DNA from: Anaeromyxobacteraceae bacterium
Lineage (GTDB): Bacteria; Myxococcota; Myxococcia; Myxococcales; Anaeromyxobacteraceae
Assembly (NCBI GenBank): GCA_049586815.1
Contig: JBAVCR010000182.1
Coordinates: forward strand, 7,056-71,055
DNA length: 64,000 nucleotides
Reading direction: 5' to 3'
The first letter of the stretch is position 1, and each line of letters opens with the position of its first letter. The notes beneath the pieces are model-generated. The model saw only the letters and a program-made list of their open reading frames with translations. It did not search any database and was not told the origin of the DNA. The position numbers and the translations under genes were made by a program. This document shows positions 18,313 through 47,580 of the stretch, piece after piece.

Positions 18313-20112
18313 ATGCAGCGCTCCGCGACGCCATTCCGCCGGGCCCTGGCCCTCTTCCTCGCCTGCCAGCCCGTGCTCTGGATGAGCAACGTGGCCTACG
18401 CGCAGTCGCTCGGGCAGGGGTACGAGATGCAGCGCCCCGACCCCCGCAGCCAGGACGGGCAGGCGGCCGGTGCGGCGTCGCAGCAGGCCTCCCCACAGCA
18501 GCTCCAGCTCCTCCAGCAGCAGATGGGGGGACAGGGGGCCTTCGGCTCCACCCAGCCGCCCACCTCCGGCCAGCCCGGGGGATCGGGGCTGCTCGGGACG
18601 CCGAGCTTCGGCGTCCCCGGGGCCGCCTCGGAAGGAGAGGGGCTCCGGGTCGACCAGCCGCGCATCCCCCAGGCCTCCACGACGTCACCCCCGGTCGACG
18701 AGCCCATCGACCCGGCGCGCTACGTCCTCGGGCCGAACGACATCCTCGAGCTGCACTTCTGGGGGGTCGAGAACTTCCGCGTCCGCGTGACGGTCGACCT
18801 CGAGGGGAGGGGGTTCGTACCCAAGATCGGATACCTCCCGCTCGGAGGGAAGACGCTCGCAGAGGCCCAGAACATGCTCCGCGATTCGGTGGCCCGGTAC
18901 TTCCCGAAGCTCGGCTTCGGGGTGAACCTGGTCGAGCCGCGCACCTTCCTCGTGCAGGTCGTCGACGACGTGGCCCGGCCCGGCTCCTACCCGGCACGCG
19001 CGATCGAGCGCGTCGCCACGCTGATCCAGCGCGCCGGGGGCTTCGGCCCGAACGCCTCCCGCCGCCGCATCGAGGTGCGCCGCCGCGACGGCACGGTGAT
19101 CACCGCCGACCTGCTCCTCTACGCCATCACGGGCGACGTGAAGCACAACCCGTACGTCCTCGACGGCGACGCCATCCGCGTCCCCTTCCAGTCCCTCGTG
19201 GCGAGCATCGGCGGCGCGGTGAACCGTCCCGGGCGCTACGAGCTCGTGGGCACGAACGACCTCGCCGAGCTGGTCGAGCTGGCGGGAGGTCTCACCCCGG
19301 GCGCCACCACCGGCCTGCCGGTGCAGGTTGTCCGGCGCGCCCCCGAGGAGAAGCTGGTTCGCCTCTCCTTCGACTTCTCCACCGAGGGCAAGCTGCCCCT
19401 CGTGCCCATCGTCCGCGAGGACAGCGTCTGGATCCCCGCCTTCCTCGAGCTGCAGCAGTCGGTGACCATCACCGGCGCGCTCGCCGGGGTCGCGCCCACT
19501 GCCGGCGTGGCGGGGACTACGACGGCGCTCGCCACCGGCGGAGCCAACGCGAACAGCGCCACGAGCGCAATGAACGACGACGGCGGGGCCACGCGGCGCC
19601 TGCCCTTCGCCCAGGGCGATACGGTCCGGAGCATGCTCGAGCGGGTGGGCGGCGTGGGCCCCCTCGCGGACCTCAAGGGCTCCTACATCCTCCGGAACAA
19701 CCAGGCCATCCCGGTCGACCTGTACGCGCTCGTCATGATGCGCGACCTCAGGGCCGACAAGCCGGTGGAGCTCGGCGACACCATCGTCATCCCGTTCAAG
19801 CGGCCGAACGTGCTGGTCGAGGGAGCGGTCTTCAAGCCGGGACCGTACCCCTACAATCCGAACTTCAACGTCGAGCAGTACCTGGCCCTCGCCGGCGGTC
19901 CCAACCGCTTCGCCCAGAGCACCGACAACGTCTACATGGTGACGCCGGAGGGGCAGACCAGGGAGTTCGCCCCGGACCTGAAGGTCGAGCCGGGCGCGTC
20001 GCTCGTGGTGCCGGAGCGGAACTTCTCCCGGAGCGAGGTGGTGGCCATCATCCTCGCCGGGGCGGGCCTCCTGCTCAGCGGCGTCACCATCTGGCTGACC
20101 CTTCGCAAATGA
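18313..20112 (+). CDS. polysaccharide export (OPX/Wza-like) protein with repeated SLBB domains
   Basis: 599 aa with a signal peptide, a Q/G/P-rich linker and a Poly_export-like segment (YVLGPNDILELHFWG ... VDLEGRGFVPKIGYLPLGGKTLAEAQNML). Repeated soluble-ligand-binding beta-grasp-like segments follow. A C-terminal hydrophobic helix (VVAIILAGAGLLLSGVTIWL) is present. Confidence 0.7.
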   Translation: MQRSATPFRRALALFLACQPVLWMSNVAYAQSLGQGYEMQRPDPRSQDGQAAGAASQQASPQQLQLLQQQMGGQGAFGSTQPPTSGQPGGSGLLGTPSFGVPGAASEGEGLRVDQPRIPQASTTSPPVDEPIDPARYVLGPNDILELHFWGVENFRVRVTVDLEGRGFVPKIGYLPLGGKTLAEAQNMLRDSVARYFPKLGFGVNLVEPRTFLVQVVDDVARPGSYPARAIERVATLIQRAGGFGPNASRRRIEVRRRDGTVITADLLLYAITGDVKHNPYVLDGDAIRVPFQSLVASIGGAVNRPGRYELVGTNDLAELVELAGGLTPGATTGLPVQVVRRAPEEKLVRLSFDFSTEGKLPLVPIVREDSVWIPAFLELQQSVTITGALAGVAPTAGVAGTTTALATGGANANSATSAMNDDGGATRRLPFAQGDTVRSMLERVGGVGPLADLKGSYILRNNQAIPVDLYALVMMRDLRADKPVELGDTIVIPFKRPNVLVEGAVFKPGPYPYNPNFNVEQYLALAGGPNRFAQSTDNVYMVTPEGQTREFAPDLKVEPGASLVVPERNFSRSEVVAIILAGAGLLLSGVTIWLTLRK

Positions 20113-37811: not shown

Positions 37812-38276
37812 ATGATCGACCGGGTCCTCGTCGTCTGCGTGGGCAACATCTGCAGGAGCCCGATGGCCGAGGGGCTCTTCCGGGAGAGGCTCGGACGGCG
37901 CCCGCGGTTCCAGGTGTCGTCGGCGGGCATCTCCGCCCTCCACGGCGACCCGGCCGACTCCCTCGCCCAGCAGCTCCTCCGCGAGCGCGGCATCGACATC
38001 GGCGCGCACCGGGCCCGGCAGCTCACGCCCGCCCTCGTCTCCCAGGTCGAGCTCGTGCTCGTCATGGAGCAGGGGCACGAGCGGGCCGTGCTCGCCATGG
38101 TCCCCCAGGCCCGGGGCAAGGTGCACCGGCTGGGCAAGTTCGGGAACTTCGACGTGCCCGACCCGTACCGCCAGGGTCGCCCCGCCTTCGAGCAGTCGCT
38201 GCGCCTCATCGAGCGCGGGCTCGACGACTACGAGAAGGCCTTCTGGCCGCCCTTCCTCCGCAAGGTGAACGCGTGA
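37812..38276 (+). CDS. wzb: low-molecular-weight protein-tyrosine phosphatase
   Basis: 154 aa with the P-loop VLVVCVGNICRSPMAE (CX5R-S) and the DVPDPY Asp loop. Confidence 0.9.
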   Translation: MIDRVLVVCVGNICRSPMAEGLFRERLGRRPRFQVSSAGISALHGDPADSLAQQLLRERGIDIGAHRARQLTPALVSQVELVLVMEQGHERAVLAMVPQARGKVHRLGKFGNFDVPDPYRQGRPAFEQSLRLIERGLDDYEKAFWPPFLRKVNA

Positions 38277-39385
38277 ATCGTCGGATCGCCCTCGCCCTCC
38301 TCGCCTCCGTCGGAACCGCCTGCGGCCTCGCGCCCGGCATCCAGATGTCCGACGCCGAGGTCACCGACCGGGCCCACGAGCAGGGGGACACGAACTTCCA
38401 GATCACGGTGGTGAGCCCGTTCCTGCTCGCCCGCCTGGCCGACGACGACGCCGCGGCCGCCCGGGCGCGCAAGCCCGACCCGAACGCGGCCGAGTTCTCC
38501 ACCTACCAGTACAAGATCGCCCCGCTCGACGTGCTCTCGGTCGTGGTGTGGGACCACCCCGAGCTCACGTCTCCCACCGGCCAGTTCCGCGGGCCGGAGG
38601 ACAACGGCCTCCCCGTCTACGCCGACGGGACCATGTTCTACCCGTTCGTCGGCTACCTGAACGTCTCGGGCAAGACGGTCATCGAGGTGCAGCAGGAGCT
38701 CACCCGCCGTCTCAAGCACGCCATCAAGGATCCGCAGGTGGCGGTGCGCGTGGCGGCGTTCCGGGGGAAGCGGGTGGAGGTGACGGGCGAGGTGAAGGCG
38801 CCGCAGACCATCCCCATCTCCGACATCCCGCTGCGGGTCTCCGACGCGGTCGCGAAGTCGGGCGGCTTCGTCCCCGAATCGAACCCGGCCAGCGTGACCT
38901 TGCTGCGGAGTGGCAAACCCATCTCCCTCGACCTCATGAGCTACTTCGAGGACGGGGACGTGAAGCAGAACTGGCTCCTCCAGGACGGCGACGTGGTCCA
39001 CGTGGGGCACATCTCACGGAGCCAGGTCTACGTCTTCGGCGAGGTGAAGAAGCAGGGGACGCGCCCCATGTACCGCGGGCGGCTCAACCTGGCGCAGGCG
39101 CTGGGCGACAGCGAGGGGTTCGACTTCACCACCATGAAGCCGGTGGTCTACGTCTTCCGCGAGAAGGAGCCGGGGCGCCCGCAGATCTTCCGGCTCGACG
39201 TCTCCTCGGCCGACTCGCTCATCCTGGCGAGCCAGTTCGGGCTCCTGCCCCGGGACGTGGTCTTCGTGGCCCCGAACGAGCTGGCGCGGTTCAACCGCGT
39301 GGTGAGCCAGATCGCTCCCTTCGTGAACATCATCTGGCAGACCTGGAACATCGTCACCACGACGAAGGTGCTGCTCGGCATCTAG
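38273..39385 (+). CDS. wza: outer-membrane polysaccharide export lipoprotein
   Basis: 370 aa. The start overlaps the wzb stop. It has a lipoprotein-like signal (LLASVGTAC) and the Poly_export motif YKIAPLDVLSVVVWDHPELT ... VYADGTMFYPFVGYLNVSGKTV.EVQQEL. SLBB segments and a C-terminal helix are present. Confidence 0.9.
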   Translation: MNRRIALALLASVGTACGLAPGIQMSDAEVTDRAHEQGDTNFQITVVSPFLLARLADDDAAAARARKPDPNAAEFSTYQYKIAPLDVLSVVVWDHPELTSPTGQFRGPEDNGLPVYADGTMFYPFVGYLNVSGKTVIEVQQELTRRLKHAIKDPQVAVRVAAFRGKRVEVTGEVKAPQTIPISDIPLRVSDAVAKSGGFVPESNPASVTLLRSGKPISLDLMSYFEDGDVKQNWLLQDGDVVHVGHISRSQVYVFGEVKKQGTRPMYRGRLNLAQALGDSEGFDFTTMKPVVYVFREKEPGRPQIFRLDVSSADSLILASQFGLLPRDVVFVAPNELARFNRVVSQIAPFVNIIWQTWNIVTTTKVLLGI

Positions 39386-39403
39386 CCGGCGAGAGGAAGG
39401 GCA

Positions 39404-41716
39404 ATGGCCGGAGAGAACCGGGAGTTCGCGGTGTTGAATGGGGGGGCGACGACACCTGCCCAGCCGCCGGCGCCGCCTCCCGCGCCGCCGCGCGAGGACG
39501 AGGTCTCGCTCGCCTACTACCTGAACGTGCTCTGGGAGGGGCGCTGGCTCATCGCCGGCGCGCTCGCGCTCTCCGGGCTGGCCCTCGTCGCCTACCTCGC
39601 CATCGCCACACCCATCTACGAGACCGACATCCTCATCCAGATCGAGCAGCGGAGGCAGGGCGCCTCCGCGGCCCTCACCGACCTGCCGACCGCCCTCGCC
39701 GGTCCGCAGGGCCAGGCCGACACCGAGATCGAGGTCCTCCAGTCGCGGAAGCTCCTCGGCTCGGTGGTCGACGGCCTCCACCTCGACGTCTCGGCCTCGC
39801 CCGTGTACTTCCCGGTCGTGGGCCGCGCCTGGGCGAGACACAACGCCGGGACGGTTCCTGCGGCCGCACCCCTAGGCCTCTCCCGCTACGCCTGGGGCGG
39901 CGACCGGATCGTGGTGGGCCGGTTCGACGTGCCGCACGAGCTCGACGACTTCTCGCTCTCCCTGACGCTCGTCGCCGGCCCGGGCGGCCGCTTCGACGTG
40001 CGGAGCGCCGAGGGGGCGCCCGTGGCCGCGGGGATGGTGGGACAGCCGGTGAGCTGGAACATGCCGATCGCCGGCGGCGAGGGGAAGGCGAGCCTCTTCG
40101 TGGAGGAGCTCCGCGCCCGGCCGGGGACGGAGTTCACGCTGCGGAAGGTCTCCCGGGCCACCGCCATCCGGCGCCTGCGCCAGGACCTCAAGCTCGCCGA
40201 GAAGGGGCGGCGCACGAGCGTCATCCAGGTGACGATGAATGGGCCGAACCCGTCGGCGCTCGTCGTCACGCTCGACACGCTCGCCCAGGCCTACCTCCGC
40301 CACAACGTGGAGCGCCGATCCGACGAGGCCCAGCGCACGCTGCAGTTCCTCGACACCCAGATCCCCGCGCTCCGCGACGACCTCCAGAAGGCCGAGGCGG
40401 CGCTCGAGCAGTACAAGTCGCAAGCGGGCGGCAAGGGGGTCGACCTCACCGCCGCCACCAAGGCCACCCTCGACCGCACCGTCGAGATGGAGAAGCGGCT
40501 CTCCGAGATGGAGCTGCAGCGGAAGGAGCTCCTCTTCCGGTTCACGAGCAGCCACCCTGCCGTGAAGACGGTCGACGAGAAGGTGGCCCAGCTTCGCCAG
40601 GAGCGGGAGGCGCTGAACGAGCAGATCCGGCAGCTGCCCGAGGCCGAGTCGGCGTCGCTCCGGCTGGTGCGCGACGTGAAGGTGGCGAACGAGCTCTACG
40701 TCACGCTCCTCAACAAGGCGCAGGAGCTCAAGGTGATGAAGAGCGGGCTCGTGGGGAACGCGCACGTCCTCGACCTGGCCGTCCGCCCGGAGACGCCCAC
40801 CTCTCCCCGGAAGGGGCAGTCGGCCGCCATCGCGCTCGCGGGCGGGCTGCTCCTCGGCATCGTCCTCGCCTTCGCCCGGAAGGCGCTCCACCAGGGGCTC
40901 GTGGACCCGGCCGAGGCCGAGCGGGCCACCGGCCTCGCCGTCCGCGCCAGCGTCCCCCACAGCGACCGGCAGGGAGCGCTCGAGCGGGAGCGGAAGCTCG
41001 GCAAGCACTCCGCCACGGCCGTGCTCGCCGCGGTCGACCCCACCGACATGGCGGCGGAGAGCCTGCGGGCGCTGCGCACGTCCCTCCAGTTCGCGCTCAT
41101 GGAGTCGCCGAACAACGTCATCGCCATCGGCGGGCCACGGCCCGGGGTGGGCAAGTCCTTCATCACCATCAACCTGGCGCGGGTCTTCTCCGACGCCGGG
41201 AAGCGGGTGCTGCTCCTCGACGCCGACCTCCGCAAGGGGTCGCTCCACGGGTACCTGGGCATCCACCGCACCCCGGGGCTCGCCGAGGTCATCTCCGGGG
41301 AGGTGTCGGTGGCCGACGCCCTCCACCGGACGGAGCTGCCCGGGATCGACTTCGTCGCCCGTGGGTCCTCACCCTCGAACCCGTCCGAGCTGCTCGGCAG
41401 CGACCGGTTCCGCCTGCTCGTCGCGGACCTCTCCCGCAGCTACGACATCGTCCTCATCGACCTGCCGCCCATCCTGGCGGTGACCGACGCCGCGCTCGTG
41501 GGGCGGGTGGCGGGCGTGAACCTGCTCGTGCTGCGCTCGTCCTGGCACCCGGTCCGGGAGATCCAGGCGGCGGTGCGGGCCTACGCCGAGAACGGCGTGC
41601 GCCTCTCCGGGCTCGTCTTCAACGACGTGCCCCCGGGCAAGGGCGGTCCGGGCGGGTATTCCTACCAGTACCAGTATCACTATCAGTACAGCTACAAGCC
41701 GCGCGACGAGAAGTGA
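39404..41716 (+). CDS. wzc: polysaccharide co-polymerase / tyrosine autokinase (PCP-2a)
   Basis: 770 aa with two TM helices flanking a coiled-coil periplasmic domain. It has Walker A GGPRPGVGKSF, Walker A' LLLDADLRKG and Walker B IVLIDLPP, plus a C-terminal Tyr cluster. Confidence 0.9.
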   Translation: MAGENREFAVLNGGATTPAQPPAPPPAPPREDEVSLAYYLNVLWEGRWLIAGALALSGLALVAYLAIATPIYETDILIQIEQRRQGASAALTDLPTALAGPQGQADTEIEVLQSRKLLGSVVDGLHLDVSASPVYFPVVGRAWARHNAGTVPAAAPLGLSRYAWGGDRIVVGRFDVPHELDDFSLSLTLVAGPGGRFDVRSAEGAPVAAGMVGQPVSWNMPIAGGEGKASLFVEELRARPGTEFTLRKVSRATAIRRLRQDLKLAEKGRRTSVIQVTMNGPNPSALVVTLDTLAQAYLRHNVERRSDEAQRTLQFLDTQIPALRDDLQKAEAALEQYKSQAGGKGVDLTAATKATLDRTVEMEKRLSEMELQRKELLFRFTSSHPAVKTVDEKVAQLRQEREALNEQIRQLPEAESASLRLVRDVKVANELYVTLLNKAQELKVMKSGLVGNAHVLDLAVRPETPTSPRKGQSAAIALAGGLLLGIVLAFARKALHQGLVDPAEAERATGLAVRASVPHSDRQGALERERKLGKHSATAVLAAVDPTDMAAESLRALRTSLQFALMESPNNVIAIGGPRPGVGKSFITINLARVFSDAGKRVLLLDADLRKGSLHGYLGIHRTPGLAEVISGEVSVADALHRTELPGIDFVARGSSPSNPSELLGSDRFRLLVADLSRSYDIVLIDLPPILAVTDAALVGRVAGVNLLVLRSSWHPVREIQAAVRAYAENGVRLSGLVFNDVPPGKGGPGGYSYQYQYHYQYSYKPRDEK
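41657..41695 (+). other. Wzc C-terminal tyrosine cluster (7 Tyr in 13 codons: YSYQYQYHYQYSY)
   Basis: Read directly from TAT TCC TAC CAG TAC CAG TAT CAC TAT CAG TAC AGC TAC. This is the autophosphorylation tail typical of BY-kinases. Confidence 0.8.
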
Positions 41717-41735
41717 CGCCCGCCGCGGCCGTCAC
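41713..41735. terminator. possible bidirectional hairpin between convergent wzc and the 191-aa ORF
   Basis: In GTGACGCCCGCCGCGGCCGTCAC the outer 6 bp are perfectly complementary, with additional inner G:C pairs. The hairpin includes both stop codons. There is no U-tract. Confidence 0.3.
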
Positions 41736-42307
41736 TCCCTCATCCCCAGCACCACCTGCGCCGTGAACTTCTTCCCCGGCTCCACGCCGGACGCGGGGAA
41801 GACCTGCCCGGAGAGGGCCCACAGCGCGCAGGAGACGAGGCCGGGGCGCACGTTTCCGGGCGACTGGATCGTGCCTTGCCCGAGCTTCACCTGCCCGGGG
41901 AGGGTCTCGACCGGGAAGAGGAGCAGTGCCTGCCCGGTCATCTCCTCCCCCTTCCGCCGCATCTCGTCGCCGAGGCGAAGCTGCAGCGCCCCGCACCGGC
42001 TCGAGACGCGGGCCTCGAAGGAGGGAGCGTCGCGCGCGAGGTCCACCGGCGGCGGAGGGGCCTCGGGCGCGGGGACGGCCTTCGGGGGAGGGTGAAGAAA
42101 AGCGTCGAGCTCCGCCGACGTTGCCGCGGGAGGCGGGGCCACCACCGCGGGCCGCTGCTGCTGCGGAGGGGGAGGCGCCACGGGAGGGGGCTCCACGGCG
42201 GCGGGCCGTTCGGGCCGCTCGTCGCCGCCCAGGAACTGGAGGAAGACGAGGCTTCCCGCGAGGAGCAGCGCGATCCCGACGAGCGCGATGACGACGAAGC
42301 GAGACAC
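41732..42307 (-). CDS. membrane-anchored proline-rich hypothetical protein
   Basis: 191 aa with an N-terminal TM helix (FVVIALVGIALLLAGSLVFL). A Pro/Ala-rich linker follows (PPPVAPPPPQQQRPAVVAPPP), then a ~100-aa globular C-terminal domain with two Cys. It is divergent from the MCO gene. Confidence 0.5.
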   Translation of the reverse strand: MSRFVVIALVGIALLLAGSLVFLQFLGGDERPERPAAVEPPPVAPPPPQQQRPAVVAPPPAATSAELDAFLHPPPKAVPAPEAPPPPVDLARDAPSFEARVSSRCGALQLRLGDEMRRKGEEMTGQALLLFPVETLPGQVKLGQGTIQSPGNVRPGLVSCALWALSGQVFPASGVEPGKKFTAQVVLGMRE

Positions 42308-42753
42308 GGCGTCATCCTGCCACGGGAGGGAGGGGCCGTCGAATGGTCAATCCATTGCCAATTGCGTCGCGAACGCCGATGCGAAGTATTGCGGACGATT
42401 TGCGTGTCTTTCTCCTTGACCCACGGTGAATTGCGGCGCCGCCGCGCCTCTCTCCGGGTCCGCATCCTCGGGGCGGCGGGGCCTCCCCGGTCCAGGCGCC
42501 GCACCGGGAAGCTCCGTGTTTTCGACGTGATCCGATGTGGGAGAGATGCCGACACGGTACCCAAACCGTGTCCGTGGCGCGCGGTACGTCGTAATTGACG
42601 ATGCGCAAAAATAGGCCCTAAAAGTCCACTTTCGCGTAGCCATCTTGGGTGACACCTGAATGTGATTCGTCTCACTCATTGCCACTGCGACATTTTGTCC
42701 CTACGTTACGCCGTACTGGCTCGAGCGGCCTTCCGCCGCGGGGGAGTTCCAGG

Positions 42754-45700
42754 ATGCGAGGGAATATGATTCACAGGTATCTGCGCTTCACCGTGGCCAC
42801 CGCCGCGATGGCGCTCTTCGTGGCGCCTCAGTTCCCGCTCGCGCGTGAAGCGCAGGCGACGACGCAGGATCAATCCCAGGTCGACCCGCTGCAGGCGAAG
42901 GCCGCGCGCGTCAAGGCGATGAACTCGCAGATGCGCGTCACCCAGGCGCAGCGCGAGGAGGCCGCCCGCAACCTGAAGGCCCTGCGCGAGCGCGTCGAGG
43001 CGGCCAAGGCCGCCATGCGCGCCAAGGGCGTCGCGGTGCCGGAGACGGGCATCCGCTCCGTCAAGGCTGTGAAGGGCAACGGCAATTCGCTGCGCGCAGG
43101 CGCCGCTCCCTCGTCGGCGGCGCAGCTGCCGCCGGGCGTGACCCAGATCCTGCCCACCGACACGCCGGACTACTTCACGACGGCCAACTGGGCCTTCACG
43201 AAGCCGCTCCGCAAGTTCGTCGACGCGTTGCCGGGTCTCGGGGCCGCGAACGCGAACGCCATCGGCAATTACGTGCCGGTCGGCTACCCCGACTCGCTCA
43301 CCTATCCGGGGTCCGACTACTACGAGCTCTCGGTGAAGGAATACACGCACCAGTTCCACAGTGACCTCACGCCCACCAAGGTCCGTGGATACGTGCAGAC
43401 GAACGACGGGACGGCCCACGCCAAGGAGGCCCAGAACTGGCTCGGCCCGGTCATCATCGCCCAGAAGGACCGCCCGGTCCGCATCAAGTTCAAGAACGAG
43501 AAGACGGCCGGTGGCCGGCTCCCGATTCCGGTCGACGAGTCGATCATGGGCTCGGGCCCCGGCGCCAAGTGGCCGGACGGCACCACCTGCGACCCCTCGC
43601 CCACCGGCGTGAACACGCCTGGCCAGCCCTGCGCGCTCTACCCGCAGACCCGCTCGGCCATCCACCTCCACGGCGGCCGCACCCCGTGGATCAGCGACGG
43701 CACGCCGCACCAGTGGATCCTGCCGCTCGGCGACGTGAACGACCCGGCGAATCCCTACAAGAAGGGCGTCTCCCTCTACAACGTGCCGGACATGCCGGAG
43801 CCGGGCCTCGACGAGACCACCTACTACTACTCGAACCAGCAGACGGCGCGGCTCATGTTCTACCACGACCACGCCTGGGGCATCACCCGCCTGAACGTGC
43901 TCATGGGTGAGGCGGCCGGCTACCTGCTCGTCGACCCGACCGAGCAGGCCCTCGTCGCAGACGGCACCCTGCCCAACGCGGGCGGCCTCTACACCTACGG
44001 CATCCCGCTCGTCATCCAGGACCGCACCTTCGTCGACGCGGCCAAGATCCGTCTCACCGACCCGAACTGGAACTTCGGCACCGGCGCTGCGGACGCCCAG
44101 GGAATCGTCGCGCCCGTCGACGGCGACTTCTGGATCCCGCACGTCTACGTGCCGGCCCAGAACCCCTACGACCCGACCGGCGTGAACCCCTTCGGCCGCT
44201 GGGTCTACGGCCCCTGGTTCTTCCCGCCCACCGCGAACCTCATCTTCCCGCCGGTCCCGAACCCCTACCACGACCCGAACTGCTCGGACCCCGACCCGGC
44301 CGTCTACGCGTTCTGCACCACGCCCGGCCAGCCGCCCGTCATCCCGGGCGTGCCGCACCCGTCGGTCGGCGCCGAGACCTTCTTCGACACCATCATGGTG
44401 AACGGCAACGCGTTCCCGTACGTGGACGTGGCCCCCGCCACCTACCGCTTCCGCATCCTGAACGCGGCGAACGACCGGTTCCAGAACCTGAACCTGTACG
44501 TGGCCGACTCGACCCAGGTGGCCCACGACGGCCGGCAGAACACGGAAGTGAAGATGGTTCCTGCCGCCTCCGGCTTCTGGGACCCGGTCCTCTTCCCCGA
44601 CTGGCCGGTCGACGGCCGCGTCGAGGGCGTGCCCGATCCCACCACGCTCGGCCCGCCCATCGTCATGATCGGCACCGAGGGCGGCTTCCTCTCGAAGCCG
44701 GCGGTGCTCACCGGCCAGCCCATCACCTGGGTGGCTGACCCGACGGCCTTCAACGTCGGCAACATCGACCTCTTCAACCTGTTCCTCGGTCCCGCGCAGC
44801 GCGCCGACGTCCTCATCGACTTCTGCGACTACGCCGGCAAGACCCTCATCCTCTACAACGACGCGCCGGCCGCCGTGCCCGCGTTCGACGCCCGGTTCGG
44901 CTACACGACCGGCCAGCCCGACCTGTCCGACAGCGGCGGGTACGGCGAGGTTCCCGCCTGGTCGACGACCGGCCTGAAGGAAGGCCCGCAGGTCGGCTAC
45001 GGCCCGAACATCCGGACCGTCCTCCAGATCCGCGTCGCCGCCGGCGCCTGCACGGGCAACCGGCTCGACGCCGCCGGCATCGCGGCTCTCACCGCCCGCT
45101 GGCTGCCCGCCCAGGGCCGCCAGGGCGTGTTCGAGTCCGGCCAGGACAACATCATCGTCGGCCAGGCCGACTACAACGGCGTCTACACCGGCATCACCTT
45201 CCCGTCGGTGTGGCCGGCGTGGGGCCTCTCGCGCATCGAGGACAACGCGCTCCAGTTCAAGACGGTGGCGGGCACGATCGTCACCTTCCCGATGGAGCCG
45301 AAGGCGATGCACGACGAGATGGGCGCCTCGTTCGATCCCGAGTACGGCCGCATGTCCACGAACCTCGGCATGCGCACGCCCATCCCGCTCACCAACAACG
45401 CCAACATGACGCCGTTCTTCTACTCGGATCCTCCGACCGAGATCATGACGAACGTGGCGCTCAACGCCTCCCCGATCTCGCCCGTCCTCGGTGACGGCAC
45501 GCAGATCTGGAAGATCTCGCACAACGGCGTCGACATGCACCCCATCCACTTCCACATCTTCGACGTCCAGCTCATCAACCGCGTGGGCTGGGACGGCCAG
45601 ATCCGGCTCCCGGCTCCCACCGAGCTCGGCTGGCAGGACACGGTGCGCATCGCGCCGCTCGAGGACACCATCGTGGCGATGCGCCCCTGGGCCCCGCCGC

Positions 45701-47523
45701 TGCCGTTCGGCGTCCCGAACAGCCTCCGCCCGCTCAACCCGTCGATCCCCATCGGCTCGGGCTACGGCTTCACCAACATCGACCCGGTGACGCAGAACCC
45801 GCTCGTCCCGCCCACCACGAACCGCATCGAGAACTACGCGTGGGAGTACGTGTGGCACTGCCACATCCTCAGCCACGAAGAGAACGACATGATGCGGCCC
45901 ATCGTGCTCAACGTGTCGTCGACCATCCCGCCGGCCATCCCGGCTGGTCCGGTCGTCGGGGCCTTCAACGGCGGCTACCCGCTCAGCTGGGTCGACCCGA
46001 CCGTCGTCGACTACGCGACCCAGGCCAACTTCGGCAACCTCTCGAACGAGATCGGGTTCCGCATCGAGCGCTCGCCGGGCAACAGCACCTTCGCCACGGT
46101 CGGGTACGCCCGCGCCAACGCGACCACGTTCACGGACGCCTCGGCGGTCGCCGGCTCGAACTACCGGTACCGCGTGGTGGCCTACAACCAGGCCGGTGAG
46201 TCGGTCTCGCCGTCCACCCAGATCAACGCGCCGACGACGACGCAGCCCACGGGCCTCACCACCCCGGCCGTGAACAACGTCCAGACCGGCATCACCACCT
46301 CCACCTGGACGAAGTCGCTCAACACCACGACCGGGCCGCGCTTCACGACGACCGCGTCGGGTGGCACGCCGACCACGTACGAGTACCAGTACCTCATCGC
46401 CGTCGGCACGAACGTGAGCTTCGTCACCAGCCCGGGCAGCTTCACCGTCGCCCAGGCCTGGAGCAGCCTCAACACGTGGACGATGCCGCTCACGCAGCAG
46501 GGGGCCGTCAGCCCCGGCCGCGGGTACACCATCGTCTCCCAGGCGCGCAACTCGACCCTGGGCACGCCGCGCACGTCGTCGGGCCGCAACTACACCGTGA
46601 TCATCCCGTCGCCCACCACGGGCCTCACGCTCACCCCGTCGCCGGCCAGCCCGGCGCTCGTGGGCACGGGCGTGGTGTTCAACGCGGTCGCCACGGGTGG
46701 CACCACCAACCGGCAGTACCAGTTCTCGACGTCGACGGACGGCGGCACCACCTGGACCGTCCGCCGCGCCTGGGCCACTGGCACCTCGTGGACGATGCCT
46801 GCCGCGACGCCCGTCGGCACCTACACCGTGAAGGTGGACGTGCGGACGAACTCCACGGGCATCGACCGCACCGCGCAGGTCACGTACGTCATCCGCAATC
46901 CCGCGGCGACGGGCGTGACGCTCGCAGCGCAGTTCCCGAGCCCGCATGCCGCGCCGGTGAGCTTCCTCGCCACGGGCCAGGGTCCGGCTCCGCTGACGAC
47001 GGCGACCGGTGGTGGGTACTTCTACCGGTTCCTGCTCAGCACGGCGGGTGGACCGTTCAACCAGGTCCAGGCCTGGGGCACGGGGCGTACGTACACGCTG
47101 CCGGCCAATACTGTGGCCGGCGCCTACACGGTCCGCGTCGAGGTCAGCACGGTCGCGACGGGTCCGGCGGACGTTGCTCCGGTTGACCTGGCGTACACAG
47201 TGACTGTGGCGACGCCGGCAACTGGCGCGACTCTCACGCCGACGCCTGCAAGCCCCGGTACGGTTGGGGTCCCTGTGGTGTGGGCTGCTGTCGGTTCTGG
47301 GTCCACGACTAACGGCGCACCGACGCCGGCTGGCGCCTACCAGTACCGGTTCTGGTTGTTCGACGGCGTGAACTACACGATGGTGCAAGACTACGGTGTC
47401 GGGTCAACCTGGACTTGGACGCCGCCAGCAACGGGCAACTACTGGGTTTCTGTTTGGGTGAGGAGTTCGCCGTCGAGGACGGTCGACCTTGGAACTCCCG
47501 ACCAGCTTTATCAGGTCCAGTAG
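42754..47523 (+). CDS. giant secreted multicopper oxidase fused to FN3 and four tandem Ig-like (Y_Y_Y-like) repeats
   Basis: The ATG at 42754 is preceded by GGGGAG. The product has a signal peptide and a short coiled coil. All four MCO copper motifs are present: IHLHGG (~43655), FYHDHAWG (~43858), HPIHFHIFD (~45538) and WHCHILSHEENDMM (~45853). The FN3 domain contains YRYRVVAYNQAGES. Four ~100-aa repeats follow. Confidence 0.85.
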   Translation: MRGNMIHRYLRFTVATAAMALFVAPQFPLAREAQATTQDQSQVDPLQAKAARVKAMNSQMRVTQAQREEAARNLKALRERVEAAKAAMRAKGVAVPETGIRSVKAVKGNGNSLRAGAAPSSAAQLPPGVTQILPTDTPDYFTTANWAFTKPLRKFVDALPGLGAANANAIGNYVPVGYPDSLTYPGSDYYELSVKEYTHQFHSDLTPTKVRGYVQTNDGTAHAKEAQNWLGPVIIAQKDRPVRIKFKNEKTAGGRLPIPVDESIMGSGPGAKWPDGTTCDPSPTGVNTPGQPCALYPQTRSAIHLHGGRTPWISDGTPHQWILPLGDVNDPANPYKKGVSLYNVPDMPEPGLDETTYYYSNQQTARLMFYHDHAWGITRLNVLMGEAAGYLLVDPTEQALVADGTLPNAGGLYTYGIPLVIQDRTFVDAAKIRLTDPNWNFGTGAADAQGIVAPVDGDFWIPHVYVPAQNPYDPTGVNPFGRWVYGPWFFPPTANLIFPPVPNPYHDPNCSDPDPAVYAFCTTPGQPPVIPGVPHPSVGAETFFDTIMVNGNAFPYVDVAPATYRFRILNAANDRFQNLNLYVADSTQVAHDGRQNTEVKMVPAASGFWDPVLFPDWPVDGRVEGVPDPTTLGPPIVMIGTEGGFLSKPAVLTGQPITWVADPTAFNVGNIDLFNLFLGPAQRADVLIDFCDYAGKTLILYNDAPAAVPAFDARFGYTTGQPDLSDSGGYGEVPAWSTTGLKEGPQVGYGPNIRTVLQIRVAAGACTGNRLDAAGIAALTARWLPAQGRQGVFESGQDNIIVGQADYNGVYTGITFPSVWPAWGLSRIEDNALQFKTVAGTIVTFPMEPKAMHDEMGASFDPEYGRMSTNLGMRTPIPLTNNANMTPFFYSDPPTEIMTNVALNASPISPVLGDGTQIWKISHNGVDMHPIHFHIFDVQLINRVGWDGQIRLPAPTELGWQDTVRIAPLEDTIVAMRPWAPPLPFGVPNSLRPLNPSIPIGSGYGFTNIDPVTQNPLVPPTTNRIENYAWEYVWHCHILSHEENDMMRPIVLNVSSTIPPAIPAGPVVGAFNGGYPLSWVDPTVVDYATQANFGNLSNEIGFRIERSPGNSTFATVGYARANATTFTDASAVAGSNYRYRVVAYNQAGESVSPSTQINAPTTTQPTGLTTPAVNNVQTGITTSTWTKSLNTTTGPRFTTTASGGTPTTYEYQYLIAVGTNVSFVTSPGSFTVAQAWSSLNTWTMPLTQQGAVSPGRGYTIVSQARNSTLGTPRTSSGRNYTVIIPSPTTGLTLTPSPASPALVGTGVVFNAVATGGTTNRQYQFSTSTDGGTTWTVRRAWATGTSWTMPAATPVGTYTVKVDVRTNSTGIDRTAQVTYVIRNPAATGVTLAAQFPSPHAAPVSFLATGQGPAPLTTATGGGYFYRFLLSTAGGPFNQVQAWGTGRTYTLPANTVAGAYTVRVEVSTVATGPADVAPVDLAYTVTVATPATGATLTPTPASPGTVGVPVVWAAVGSGSTTNGAPTPAGAYQYRFWLFDGVNYTMVQDYGVGSTWTWTPPATGNYWVSVWVRSSPSRTVDLGTPDQLYQVQ
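46246..47520 (+). repeat. four tandem ~100-codon protein-domain repeats in the C-terminus of the MCO (approximate borders 46246/46615/46903/47206/47520)
   Basis: Each unit has the pattern TP.P.SP...G..V.F.A.A.GG....YQYrF......g..W...q.W....tWTw.P......G.Y.V.V.Vr. Examples are YEYQYLIA, RQYQFSTS, YFYRFLLS and YQYRFWLF. The pattern resembles the Y_Y_Y / triple-tyrosine Ig-fold. Confidence 0.6.
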
Positions 47524-47546: not shown

Positions 47547-47580
47547 CGGCCGCCGGTCCTCGGACCGGCGGCCGATTTCA
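47547..47580 (+). terminator. rho-independent-type terminator after the MCO gene
   Basis: A perfect 13-bp stem CGGCCGCCGGTCC/GGACCGGCGGCCG with a 2-nt centre lies 24 nt after the stop. It is followed by ATTTCAATT. Confidence 0.6.

What the first reader, a model, noticed from the sequence alone, without database searches (positions are those of the whole stretch)
42754..47523. Exceptionally large secreted multicopper oxidase fused to FN3 and four Y_Y_Y-like Ig repeats, sitting between two glycan modules
Seen directly: all four copper-ligand motifs of a three-domain laccase/CotA-type MCO are present (HLH, HDH, HxxHxH and HCHxxxHxxxxM). They are spread over ~1,100 residues, with roughly 540 residues between the second and third motifs. 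An FN3 domain and four ~100-aa repeats with a YxYrF...W...W..tWT...G.Y.V.V pattern follow. A cleavable-type signal peptide and a short coiled coil precede the catalytic part. Established knowledge: typical bacterial MCOs are ~450-650 aa. Ig/FN3 tails usually mediate matrix or carbohydrate binding. Inference: this may be an extracellular, matrix-tethered oxidase acting on, or anchored to, the polysaccharide made by the surrounding genes. Possible roles are phenolic or metal oxidation or cross-linking, as with the spore-coat protein CotA.
Basis: partly seen in the sequence, partly recalled or inferred. Interest (0 to 1): 0.6.

Follow-up and report, generated by a model that had tools for sequence, protein, structure and literature searches.

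The report
Secreted OmpB/MofA-type multicopper oxidase
This is a real, intact gene for a large secreted copper oxidase, but it is normal-sized for a widespread family (Geobacter OmpB / Leptothrix MofA type); the unusual point is that in this Anaeromyxobacter-like lineage it sits, with a small membrane partner gene, inside a polysaccharide-export locus.

Summary
Window 42754-47523(+) is one continuous 1589-aa ORF. It has a Sec-type signal peptide and an N-terminal helical module. All 12 canonical multicopper-oxidase ligands are present and invariant in 65 relatives. An FN3 domain and four related Ig-like repeats follow, then a strong terminator.

"Exceptionally large" is wrong. The ~930-aa core has about 6,000 relatives in the protein database and occurs in at least 596 species genomes, archaea included. 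The 119 nearest relatives are 1033-2482 aa long (median 1499) and carry interchangeable Ig/FN3 tails.

An AlphaFold model (pLDDT 84.5) matches CotA (TM 0.81-0.84). The core is therefore three cupredoxin domains with conserved family-specific insertions, not six domains.

Geobacter relatives (53% identical) lie in FKBP-SCO1-MofC-like clusters. That is the published ompB/mofABC arrangement.

The window's clade is monophyletic and sister to them. It has no such accessory genes nearby. In every long contig checked it is paired with a ~190-aa membrane-anchored, proline-rich, two-cysteine protein inside Wzb-Wza-Wzc/PglF-type polysaccharide loci.

Best reading: a surface- or matrix-retained metal or redox oxidase. 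The substrate is unknown and the link to the polysaccharide is inferred from synteny only. It is a new member of a known kind, of moderate interest.

The parts
42754..47523 (+). Multicopper oxidase gene (1589 aa plus stop)
   Evidence: Continuous ORF. GC3 about 0.95. CotA homology at E 4e-35. About 6,000 relatives found.
42754..42858 (+). Sec-type signal peptide (residues 1-35, predicted cleavage after AQA)
   Evidence: Hydrophobicity profile and AXA site. No twin-arginine, no lipobox. Judged by inspection only.
42871..43038 (+). N-terminal helical module (residues about 40-95), holding the family motif MRVTQAQREEAARNLKAL (nt 42931-42984)
   Evidence: AF2 helices at residues 45-60 and 64-90, pLDDT 82-89. 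The motif is present in 68 of 121 family members. The same HMM hits a separate small secreted ORF just upstream of the oxidase gene in Geobacter-type loci.
43060..43158 (+). Disordered Ala/Ser/Gly linker (residues about 103-135)
   Evidence: pLDDT below 50.
43159..45933 (+). Catalytic core (residues 136-1060): three cupredoxin domains of CotA type with about 370 aa of conserved insertions
   Evidence: AF2 mean pLDDT 84.5, pTM 0.85. Foldseek to CotA: E 1e-36, TM 0.81-0.84 normalised to CotA. Six collinear HMMER pieces. Insert motif GRWxYGPWF is present in 119 of 121 relatives.
43663..43671 (+). Copper motif 1, HLH (H304, H306)
   Evidence: Aligned to CotA H105/H107.
43864..43872 (+). Copper motif 2, HDH (H371, H373)
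45538..45555 (+). Copper motif 3, HPIHFH (H929, H932, H934)
45856..45891 (+). Copper motif 4, HCHILSHEENDM (H1035, C1036, H1037, H1041, M1046: type-1 Cys, His and axial Met plus two trinuclear-site His)
   Evidence: Nearly identical to CotA HCHILEHEDYDM.
45976..46245 (+). FN3 domain (residues about 1075-1164)
   Evidence: Pfam fn3 E 2e-4, sub-threshold. Beta-sandwich in the AF2 tail model, pLDDT 90. FN3 arrays are the top Foldseek matches.
46246..46611 (+). Ig-like repeat 1 (residues 1165-1286), Thr-rich
46612..46899 (+). Ig-like repeat 2 (residues 1287-1382)
46900..47211 (+). Ig-like repeat 3 (residues 1383-1486)
47212..47520 (+). Ig-like repeat 4 (residues 1487-1589), with lower GC3 and diverged from the closest relative
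   Evidence: GC3 falls from about 0.97 to 0.75. Identity to P0003 falls from 88% overall to 52% over residues 1501-1550.
47547..47574 (+). Intrinsic-terminator-like hairpin (12-bp stem, 11 G-C pairs) 24 nt after the stop codon
42308..42753 (.). Divergent intergenic region. The proximal ~160 bp and the blocks GGGTGACACC and CATTGCC..TGCG are conserved in relatives
   Evidence: No Rfam family. No sigma-70 consensus match.
41732..42307 (-). Partner gene: 191-aa protein with an N-terminal TM anchor, a Pro-rich spacer and a ~95-aa C-terminal domain with two invariant Cys
   Evidence: Only 27 clusters in 5.8 billion proteins. Next to the oxidase gene in all 10 long contigs examined, divergently transcribed. 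No Pfam hit.
37812..41716 (+). Wzb (LMW phosphatase), Wza and Wzc polysaccharide export and regulation genes directly upstream
   Evidence: Pfam. Same order in L081, L082, L086, L064 and L135.

Best explanation
The gene encodes a catalytically competent, Sec-exported multicopper oxidase of the OmpB/MofA type that probably ends up on the cell surface or outside the cell.

Shown: the core is a CotA-like three-cupredoxin-domain enzyme. It has a type-1 copper site (His-Cys-His plus axial Met) and an eight-histidine trinuclear cluster.

Follows from established MCO chemistry: it takes single electrons from a donor at the type-1 site and reduces O2 to water at the trinuclear site.

Shown: conserved family-specific insertions decorate the core. 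An N-terminal helical module is fused here but is a separate small secreted protein in Geobacter-type loci. The C-terminal FN3 plus four Ig-like, Thr-rich beta-sandwich domains form a beads-on-a-string stalk.

Inferred: that stalk most likely retains the enzyme on the cell surface, on mineral particles or in the exopolysaccharide matrix.

Inferred from relatives: the likely donors are reduced metals (Fe(II), Mn(II)) or redox-active organics such as humic hydroquinones, at oxic-anoxic interfaces. [quoted passage not shown]

Shown: in this Anaeromyxobacter-like clade the oxidase has no FKBP, SCO1 or MofC-type accessory genes nearby. It is fixed as a two-gene cassette with a membrane-anchored, Pro-rich, two-Cys partner at the edge of the Wzb-Wza-Wzc or PglF block of polysaccharide loci.

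Inferred from conserved synteny only: this suggests co-deployment with the exopolysaccharide.
For: - Ligands and fold. All ligands are present and invariant in 65 relatives. CotA homology is E 4e-35 by sequence. By fold, Foldseek gives E 1e-36 and TM 0.81-0.84 on a model with pLDDT 84.5.
- Family size. About 6,000 relatives with at least about 50% identity over the core, 1033-2482 aa long with variable Ig/FN3/PKD tails. At least 596 species genomes, including archaea.
- Link to OmpB/MofA. Geobacter relatives (53% identical) sit behind FKBP, SCO1/SenC, a ~580-aa periplasmic-binding-like protein with one CxxCH motif, and a small ORF. That matches the ompB/mofABC clusters described in PMC5566968. 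The tree places the window's clade as sister to that Geobacter clade.
- Export. Signal peptide. Cysteines at 279/293 and 510/521 are nearly invariant in the clade and placed to form disulfides. The tail folds as five beta-sandwich domains with pLDDT 90.
- Cassette. The partner gene is adjacent and divergent in L081, L082, L083, L086/L002, L064, L135, L136, L208 and L209, down to 61% oxidase identity and 36% partner identity, while the surrounding glycan genes differ.
- Expression. Contigs from four soil metatranscriptomes pile onto the copper-site blocks, so relatives are transcribed in soils. MofA is among the top-expressed genes of L. ochracea (PMC11412304).
Against: - No direct alignment to G. 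sulfurreducens GSU1394 or L. discophora MofA could be made. Family assignment rests on Geobacter MAG homologues, their gene clusters and the literature description.
- The window (64 kb) has no FKBP, SCO1, MofC-like or c-type cytochrome gene, so a defining context feature of ompB/mofA clusters is absent here.
- The substrate is unknown even for OmpB and MofA (PMC5566968, PMC11412304).
- The oxidase gene has its own upstream region and terminator. It is not in an operon with glycan genes.
- All loci showing the synteny belong to one monophyletic lineage, so the conserved order could be inherited rather than selected.
- No anchor motif (lipobox, C-terminal sorting signal) explains surface retention.
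Confidence: 0.7

Rival explanations
1. It is a general extracellular laccase or polyphenol oxidase, CotA-like in function. It would oxidise soluble phenolics, lignin-derived compounds or humic substances for detoxification or carbon access, and the glycan-locus position would be incidental.
For: The closest solved structures and sequences are CotA laccases and bilirubin oxidases. The type-1 motif is nearly identical to that of CotA. The organism comes from soil or sediment habitats rich in humics. The gene is an independent transcription unit.
Against: Identity to CotA is only about 20%. The family-specific insertions are invariant across phyla. The nearest clade is tied to SCO1 and cytochrome-containing metal-redox clusters. 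The cassette with the partner is kept inside polysaccharide loci although the flanking genes differ.
Confidence: 0.15
2. It is a matrix-modifying enzyme. The oxidase would oxidatively cross-link or tailor the exopolysaccharide, for example through phenolic or amino-acyl substituents made by the acyl-carrier cassette of the same locus. Alternatively it would itself be glycosylated on its Thr-rich tail by the locus.
For: It is the only non-glycan enzyme within about 48 kb of glycan genes. The position next to wzc or pglF is conserved in all relatives checked. The tail is 19.5% Thr.
Against: No evidence exists for an oxidisable substituent on the polymer. Most of the family, thousands of members, is not in glycan loci. 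There is no operon link. No precedent turned up in the literature searched.
Confidence: 0.1
3. It is a copper-homeostasis cuprous oxidase of CueO type that protects the envelope from Cu(I).
For: It is an MCO, and there is a weak NCBIfam CueO hit (46 bits).
Against: The CueO score is far below the cut-off (46 against 525). There is no Met-rich insert, no Tat signal and no cop or cus genes in the window. A huge Ig-like tail is not expected for a periplasmic detoxifier.
Confidence: 0.04

Closest known systems
Geobacter sulfurreducens OmpB (GSU1394), with OmpC
   Same: A large secreted outer-surface multicopper protein with four copper motifs and an FN3 domain (PMC5566968). Geobacter MAG homologues that are 53% identical to the window protein lie in SCO1/MofC-type clusters like the ompB cluster. 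The window's clade is sister to that clade.
   Different: The window has no MofC-like cytochrome or SCO1 gene. It carries a fused N-terminal helical module, which is a separate small ORF in Geobacter-type loci. Its tail differs (four Ig-like repeats). It is paired with a clade-specific membrane partner inside a polysaccharide locus. The only EXXE motif (ERVE at residue 79) lies in the N-terminal helix, not in the catalytic core.
Leptothrix discophora / L. cholodnii MofA (mofABC)
   Same: A very large extracellular MCO reported as homologous to OmpB (PMC5566968). Its operon partners are an FKBP-type isomerase (MofB) and a cytochrome/binding protein (MofC), the same pair seen next to Geobacter-type relatives of the window protein. 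It is highly expressed in situ and its Fe-versus-Mn role is unresolved (PMC11412304).
   Different: No mofB or mofC equivalents occur in the window. The taxon (Myxococcota-like) and genomic setting differ. Mn(II) oxidation is not shown for this clade.
Bacillus subtilis CotA laccase (PDB 1GSK and relatives)
   Same: The best sequence and fold match among solved structures. It has the same three-cupredoxin topology, the same ligand set and a near-identical HCHILxHE..DMM motif.
   Different: About 20% identity. CotA is 513 aa, a spore-coat protein, with no signal peptide or Ig tail. The window protein has about 370 extra residues inserted at five places in the core, plus about 150 N-terminal and about 530 C-terminal residues.
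Bacillus MnxG (Mnx complex with the small subunits MnxE and MnxF); recalled from memory, not tested
   Same: A large metal-oxidising MCO whose gene is preceded by small accessory-protein genes. This is a possible analogy for the N-terminal module, which is a small upstream ORF in Geobacter-type loci.
   Different: MnxG is a six-domain MCO. The window protein has one set of three domains. No sequence relation between the module and MnxE/F was tested.

Membership tests
Multicopper oxidase superfamily (three-domain laccase/CotA type) | Four conserved copper-ligand motifs: HxH, HxH, HxxHxH and HCHxxxHxxxxM (10 His, 1 Cys, axial Met) | tested here: met
   Motifs at residues 304, 371, 929 and 1035. 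All ligands are invariant in 65 relatives.
Multicopper oxidase superfamily (three-domain laccase/CotA type) | Three cupredoxin domains in CotA topology | tested here: met
   AF2 model pLDDT 84.5. Foldseek to CotA gives E 1e-36 and TM 0.81-0.84 over the whole of CotA.
Multicopper oxidase superfamily (three-domain laccase/CotA type) | Copper binding and O2-dependent oxidase activity | not testable with these tools
   Needs purified protein.
OmpB/MofA-type large extracellular MCOs | Secreted protein of more than 1000 aa with a single MCO ligand set and extra non-catalytic domains, including FN3 | tested here: met
   Relatives are 1033-2482 aa.
OmpB/MofA-type large extracellular MCOs | Sequence homology to the named founders (GSU1394, MofA) | tested here: inconclusive
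The evidence is indirect. The window protein is 53% identical to Geobacter MAG proteins that lie in ompB/mofABC-like clusters, and PMC5566968 describes that cluster.
OmpB/MofA-type large extracellular MCOs | Gene cluster with MofC-like cytochrome/binding protein, SCO1/SenC copper chaperone and/or MofB FKBP isomerase | tested here: not met
   tblastn with the Geobacter-locus proteins finds nothing in the 64-kb window, and no CxxCH-containing ORF was found among the ORFs of 1-27 kb that were checked.
OmpB/MofA-type large extracellular MCOs | Role in metal redox chemistry (Fe(III)-oxide reduction, or Mn/Fe oxidation) | not testable with these tools
   Needs genetics and biochemistry.
PhsA o-aminophenol oxidase / CueO / FtsP (NCBIfam equivalogs) | Score above the curated equivalog cut-off | tested here: not met
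   PhsA 101.9 bits against cut-off 950. CueO 46 against 525. FtsP 21.6 against 581.
Y_Y_Y domain (PF07495) repeats | Significant match to the Pfam model | tested here: not met
   No Y_Y_Y hit for the whole protein or for single repeats at E up to 10. NCBIfam triple-tyrosine protein gives only E 0.007. Foldseek's top 50 are generic FN3/Ig arrays. Relatives carry only 'faint' precomputed hits.
Fibronectin type III domain | Pfam fn3 match and beta-sandwich fold | tested here: inconclusive
   The score is 21.8 bits against a gathering score of 25 (E 2e-4). The fold evidence agrees: confident beta-sandwich, with FN3 arrays as best matches.

The most novel reading that the evidence does not exclude
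In this Anaeromyxobacter-like lineage the oxidase and its two-Cys, Pro-rich membrane partner would be an integral, selected component of the exopolysaccharide system. The enzyme would be handed to and held in the polymer by its Ig-like tail, giving a redox-active or oxidatively cross-linked matrix. The partner would replace the SCO1/MofB/MofC maturation genes used elsewhere. The fused N-terminal helical module would be a built-in accessory subunit that other lineages encode separately.
Probability: 0.15. Interest if true: 0.7.

Novelty: new member of a known kind. Interest (0 to 1): 0.4.

Why it matters
Large OmpB/MofA-type multicopper oxidases are widespread: thousands of sequences from many bacterial and archaeal phyla. 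Relatives are strongly represented in soil metatranscriptomes. They have been linked genetically to Fe(III)-oxide reduction and to Mn/Fe oxidation. Yet none appeared among the solved-structure matches here, and their substrates remain unsettled in the papers read.

This locus adds three testable handles:
- a confident model showing a CotA core with conserved insertions;
- a fusion/fission event that marks a small secreted helical protein as a likely accessory subunit;
- a lineage in which the enzyme has exchanged its usual copper-chaperone and cytochrome neighbours for a novel membrane partner inside a polysaccharide-export locus.

If the polysaccharide link is real, it would connect matrix biosynthesis to extracellular redox chemistry in metal-respiring soil bacteria. 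If it is not, the gene is an ordinary family member.

Tried and rejected
- Frameshift or assembly artefact: rejected. The ORF is continuous, GC3 is uniformly high, and more than 100 homologues are collinear.
- Six-domain (MnxG/ceruloplasmin-like) architecture as the reason for the size: rejected. There is one ligand set, and CotA aligns end to end with insertions.
- Pfam Y_Y_Y for the repeats: no hit, even on single repeats at E up to 10.
- BLAST self-comparison of the tail gave nothing. It was replaced by Smith-Waterman against shuffled controls, which is significant.
- The search of protein representatives with the 65-aa N-terminal module: only 5 close hits, uninformative. A home-made HMM on the fetched loci was informative instead.
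- Riboswitch or known RNA in the 446-bp upstream region: none in Rfam at E up to 1. No sigma-70 consensus match either.
- FKBP, SCO1, MofC or cytochrome genes in the window: none.
- Pfam and NCBIfam for the partner protein: nothing except a low-complexity match to GltJ.
Full report
**1. The observation**

Frame 42649..47523(+) is open over 1624 codons. That box and the ATG are conserved in four relatives. The product is 1589 aa.

GC3 stays at 0.92-1.00 along almost the whole gene. The same collinear architecture recurs in more than 100 homologues. A frameshift or assembly artefact is therefore excluded.

The four copper motifs are HLH 304-306, HDH 371-373, HPIHFH 929-934 and HCHILSHEENDM 1035-1046. 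Every ligand (10 His, Cys1036, Met1046) is invariant in a 65-sequence alignment. The distance between motifs 2 and 3 is 555 residues.

phmmer against PDB sequences gives B. subtilis CotA at E 4e-35, in six collinear pieces that cover all three CotA domains. This is homology, not chance.

**2. Anatomy**

Residues 1-35 look like a Sec signal peptide: a basic n-region, a hydrophobic core, and AQA|T. There is no twin-arginine and no lipobox (by inspection).

An AlphaFold2 model of residues 36-1200 has mean pLDDT 84.5 and pTM 0.85. It shows:
- two N-terminal helices (residues 45-60 and 64-90);
- a disordered linker (residues about 103-130);
- a large, mostly beta core.

Foldseek against PDB puts CotA laccases first (E about 1e-36, TM 0.81-0.84 normalised to CotA, about 920 alignment columns). 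Bilirubin oxidases, phenoxazinone synthase, McoA and CueO follow. The core is thus one set of three cupredoxin domains.

From the HMMER coordinates, the extra length relative to CotA comes from insertions:

| Position | Approximate extra residues |
|---|---|
| Within domain 1 | 37 |
| Domain 1-2 linker | 86 |
| Within domain 2 | 71 |
| Between domains 2 and 3 | 125 |
| Within domain 3 | 47 |
| N-terminal addition | about 150 |

The insertions are not junk. They carry family signature motifs: GRWxYGPWF in 119 of 121 relatives and EPKxxHDEMG in 66 of 121.

Cysteines at 279/293 and 510/521 are nearly invariant in the clade. This fits disulfides in an exported protein.

A second model, of residues 1063-1589, has pLDDT 90. 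It gives five consecutive beta-sandwich domains: the FN3 domain plus the four repeats. Its best Foldseek matches are multi-FN3/Ig arrays such as gp130, contactins and fibronectin.

The four repeats (1165-1286, 1287-1382, 1383-1486, 1487-1589) are related to each other at 4-15 SD above shuffled controls. Pfam fn3 is just sub-threshold (E 2e-4). Pfam Y_Y_Y does not hit at all. 'Ig/FN3-like' is therefore the safe label, and 'Y_Y_Y-like' remains a weak suggestion (NCBIfam E 0.007). The tail is 19.5% threonine.

A 12-bp G+C-rich hairpin followed by a T-rich run lies 24 nt after the stop codon.

**3. It is not exceptional in size**

A search with the 931-aa core found 5,998 significant proteins among the 8,000 candidates scored. 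The best 120 are all at least 51% identical over about 100% of the core. They are 1033-2482 aa long, with a median of 1499 aa, and 45 of the 119 are longer than this protein.

Their tails are a mix of FN3, Y_Y_Y, PKD, Big, cell-wall-binding, FG-GAP and other modules. This is a conserved catalytic core with interchangeable adhesion or stalk domains.

They span Geobacterales, Desulfuromonadales, Actinomycetota, Chloroflexota, Acidobacteriota, Bacillota and Nitrospirota. Archaea are included: Methanoregula, Methanomassiliicoccales, Methanoperedens and Bathyarchaeota.

**4. Which family**

Two Geobacter MAG proteins, 53% identical to the window protein, are encoded directly downstream of four genes:
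- an FKBP-type isomerase;
- an SCO1/SenC protein;
- a ~580-aa periplasmic-binding-like protein with one CxxCH haem motif;
- a small ORF.

tblastn finds these neighbours in 44-52 of the 136 loci fetched up to that point.

This matches the published description of the ompB and mofABC clusters. [quoted passage not shown] MofB is a peptidyl-prolyl isomerase. MofC has a cytochrome c domain plus a periplasmic-binding domain. An SCO1/SenC chaperone lies beside them (PMC5566968).

I could not fetch GSU1394 or MofA themselves. The assignment is therefore strong but indirect.

The curated NCBIfam equivalogs (PhsA, CueO, FtsP) are all far below their cut-offs.

**5. What is particular to this lineage**

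Gene contexts of relatives at 88, 73, 70, 67, 65, 63 and 61% identity show the same local order. A polysaccharide block comes first (Wzb-Wza-Wzc, or PglC/D/E/F ending in the PglF-type dehydratase). A ~190-200-aa gene on the opposite strand follows. Then comes the oxidase, and then further glycan genes that differ from genome to genome.

The small partner has an N-terminal TM anchor, a Pro-rich spacer and a ~95-aa domain with two invariant cysteines. It has no Pfam family. It has only 27 clusters among 5.8 billion proteins. Among the first 86 fetched loci it is found only beside oxidases of this clade.

A maximum-likelihood tree of the core puts all rows with this context in one clade (16 rows with support 99; 18 rows with support 93). 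This clade is sister to the Geobacter-type clade.

The window contains no FKBP, SCO1 or MofC-like gene, and no c-type cytochrome was found among the ORFs checked.

From 13.9 to 62 kb the window is essentially all glycan genes:
- rmlACD;
- a second Wza-like gene;
- Wzx and Wzy;
- glycosyltransferases;
- the PglC/D/E/F genes;
- Wzb, Wza and Wzc;
- an aldo-keto reductase and a GMC oxidoreductase;
- methyltransferases.

Even so, the oxidase is an independent transcription unit. It has a 446-bp upstream region whose proximal ~160 bp is conserved, and its own terminator.

**6. Function**

The chemistry of the core follows from the intact ligand set: one-electron oxidation of a donor at the type-1 copper, and four-electron reduction of O2 at the trinuclear site.

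The donor is not known. The nearest functional information concerns extracellular metal redox chemistry, through OmpB and MofA. Both remain biochemically undefined (PMC5566968; PMC11412304).

The tail and the lack of any membrane or sorting anchor suggest non-covalent retention on the surface, on minerals or in the polysaccharide. The conserved cassette position suggests co-deployment with the polysaccharide. This is inference from synteny within one lineage.

Metatranscriptome contigs from four soil runs stack on the conserved copper-site blocks. Their summed depth is in the hundreds to thousands, against roughly 0-80 on the neighbouring genes. Relatives of this gene are therefore transcribed in soils. 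These are summed depths of assembled contigs from many organisms, not a measure of this gene's own expression.

**7. Rivals**

- A generic phenol or humic laccase is possible. It does not explain the invariant inserts or the metal-redox neighbours of the sister clade.
- A polysaccharide-tailoring or cross-linking role, or glycosylation of the Thr-rich tail, is the most novel reading. It has no direct support.
- A CueO-type copper detoxifier is unlikely: there is no Met-rich region, no Tat signal and no cop genes.

**8. Verdict**

The protein is a new member of a known but poorly characterised family. The clade-specific partner, the polysaccharide-locus setting and the fused accessory module are the modestly novel aspects.

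Noticed in passing
window 42871-43038 (residues about 40-95 of the oxidase); loci L117 5574, L108 5577, L131 5562, L014 9528 and about 30 others: The N-terminal helical module (family motif [KR]R[VI]TQAQREAAAERLKA) is fused to the oxidase in 68 of 121 relatives. In Geobacter/Desulfuromonadales-type loci, an HMM built only from the fused copies hits a separate small secreted ORF (about 90-130 aa) 300-500 bp upstream on the same strand (E 1e-3 to 8e-9). This is a fusion/fission event and points to a dedicated accessory subunit or pro-peptide of unknown role.
   Followed up: partly
window 41732-42307 (-): A 191-aa protein with a TM anchor, a Pro-rich spacer and a ~95-aa domain with two invariant Cys. 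The family is tiny (27 clusters in 5.8 billion proteins), has no Pfam domain, and lies next to the oxidase in all 10 long contigs checked, down to 36% identity.
   Followed up: partly
window about 47100-47520 (repeat 4 of the oxidase): GC3 falls from about 0.97 to about 0.75. Identity to the closest relative (88% overall) falls to 52% in the last repeat, and that relative has a fifth repeat. The 3' end of the gene therefore looks like a recombination boundary with the lower-G+C variable glycan module downstream.
   Followed up: partly
window 42590-42753: The ~160 bp upstream of the oxidase start is conserved across relatives whose oxidase cores are 63-88% identical to the window's. Invariant blocks include GGGTGACACC, CATTGCC..TGCG and GTCC.CTAC. 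No Rfam family and no sigma-70 consensus match. It may be a regulator site or a 5'-UTR element.
   Followed up: partly
window 13914-62117: About 48 kb of almost uninterrupted glycan genes: rmlA/C/D, two Wza-like exporters (18313-20112 and 38273-39385), Wzx, a Wzy_C protein, the PglC/D/E/F set, Wzb/Wzc, an AKR plus GMC oxidoreductase pair, several GT4 enzymes and three methyltransferases. G+C drops to about 0.59-0.62 at 54-62 kb.
   Followed up: partly
L179 (Candidatus Methanoperedens sp. BLZ2), L063, L069, L070, L072, L196: Homologues of the same large oxidase core (45-49% identical to the query in each scan) occur in archaeal genomes. These include Methanoperedens, Methanoregula, Methanomassiliicoccales and Bathyarchaeota.
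   Followed up: no
L085 12833-20689: A Geobacter MAG oxidase with the FKBP-SCO1-MofC cluster upstream also has a block of glycan genes directly downstream on the opposite strand (WecG, GT4 enzymes, Wzy_C, methyltransferases). Proximity of these oxidases to glycan loci may therefore not be limited to the window's clade.
   Followed up: no
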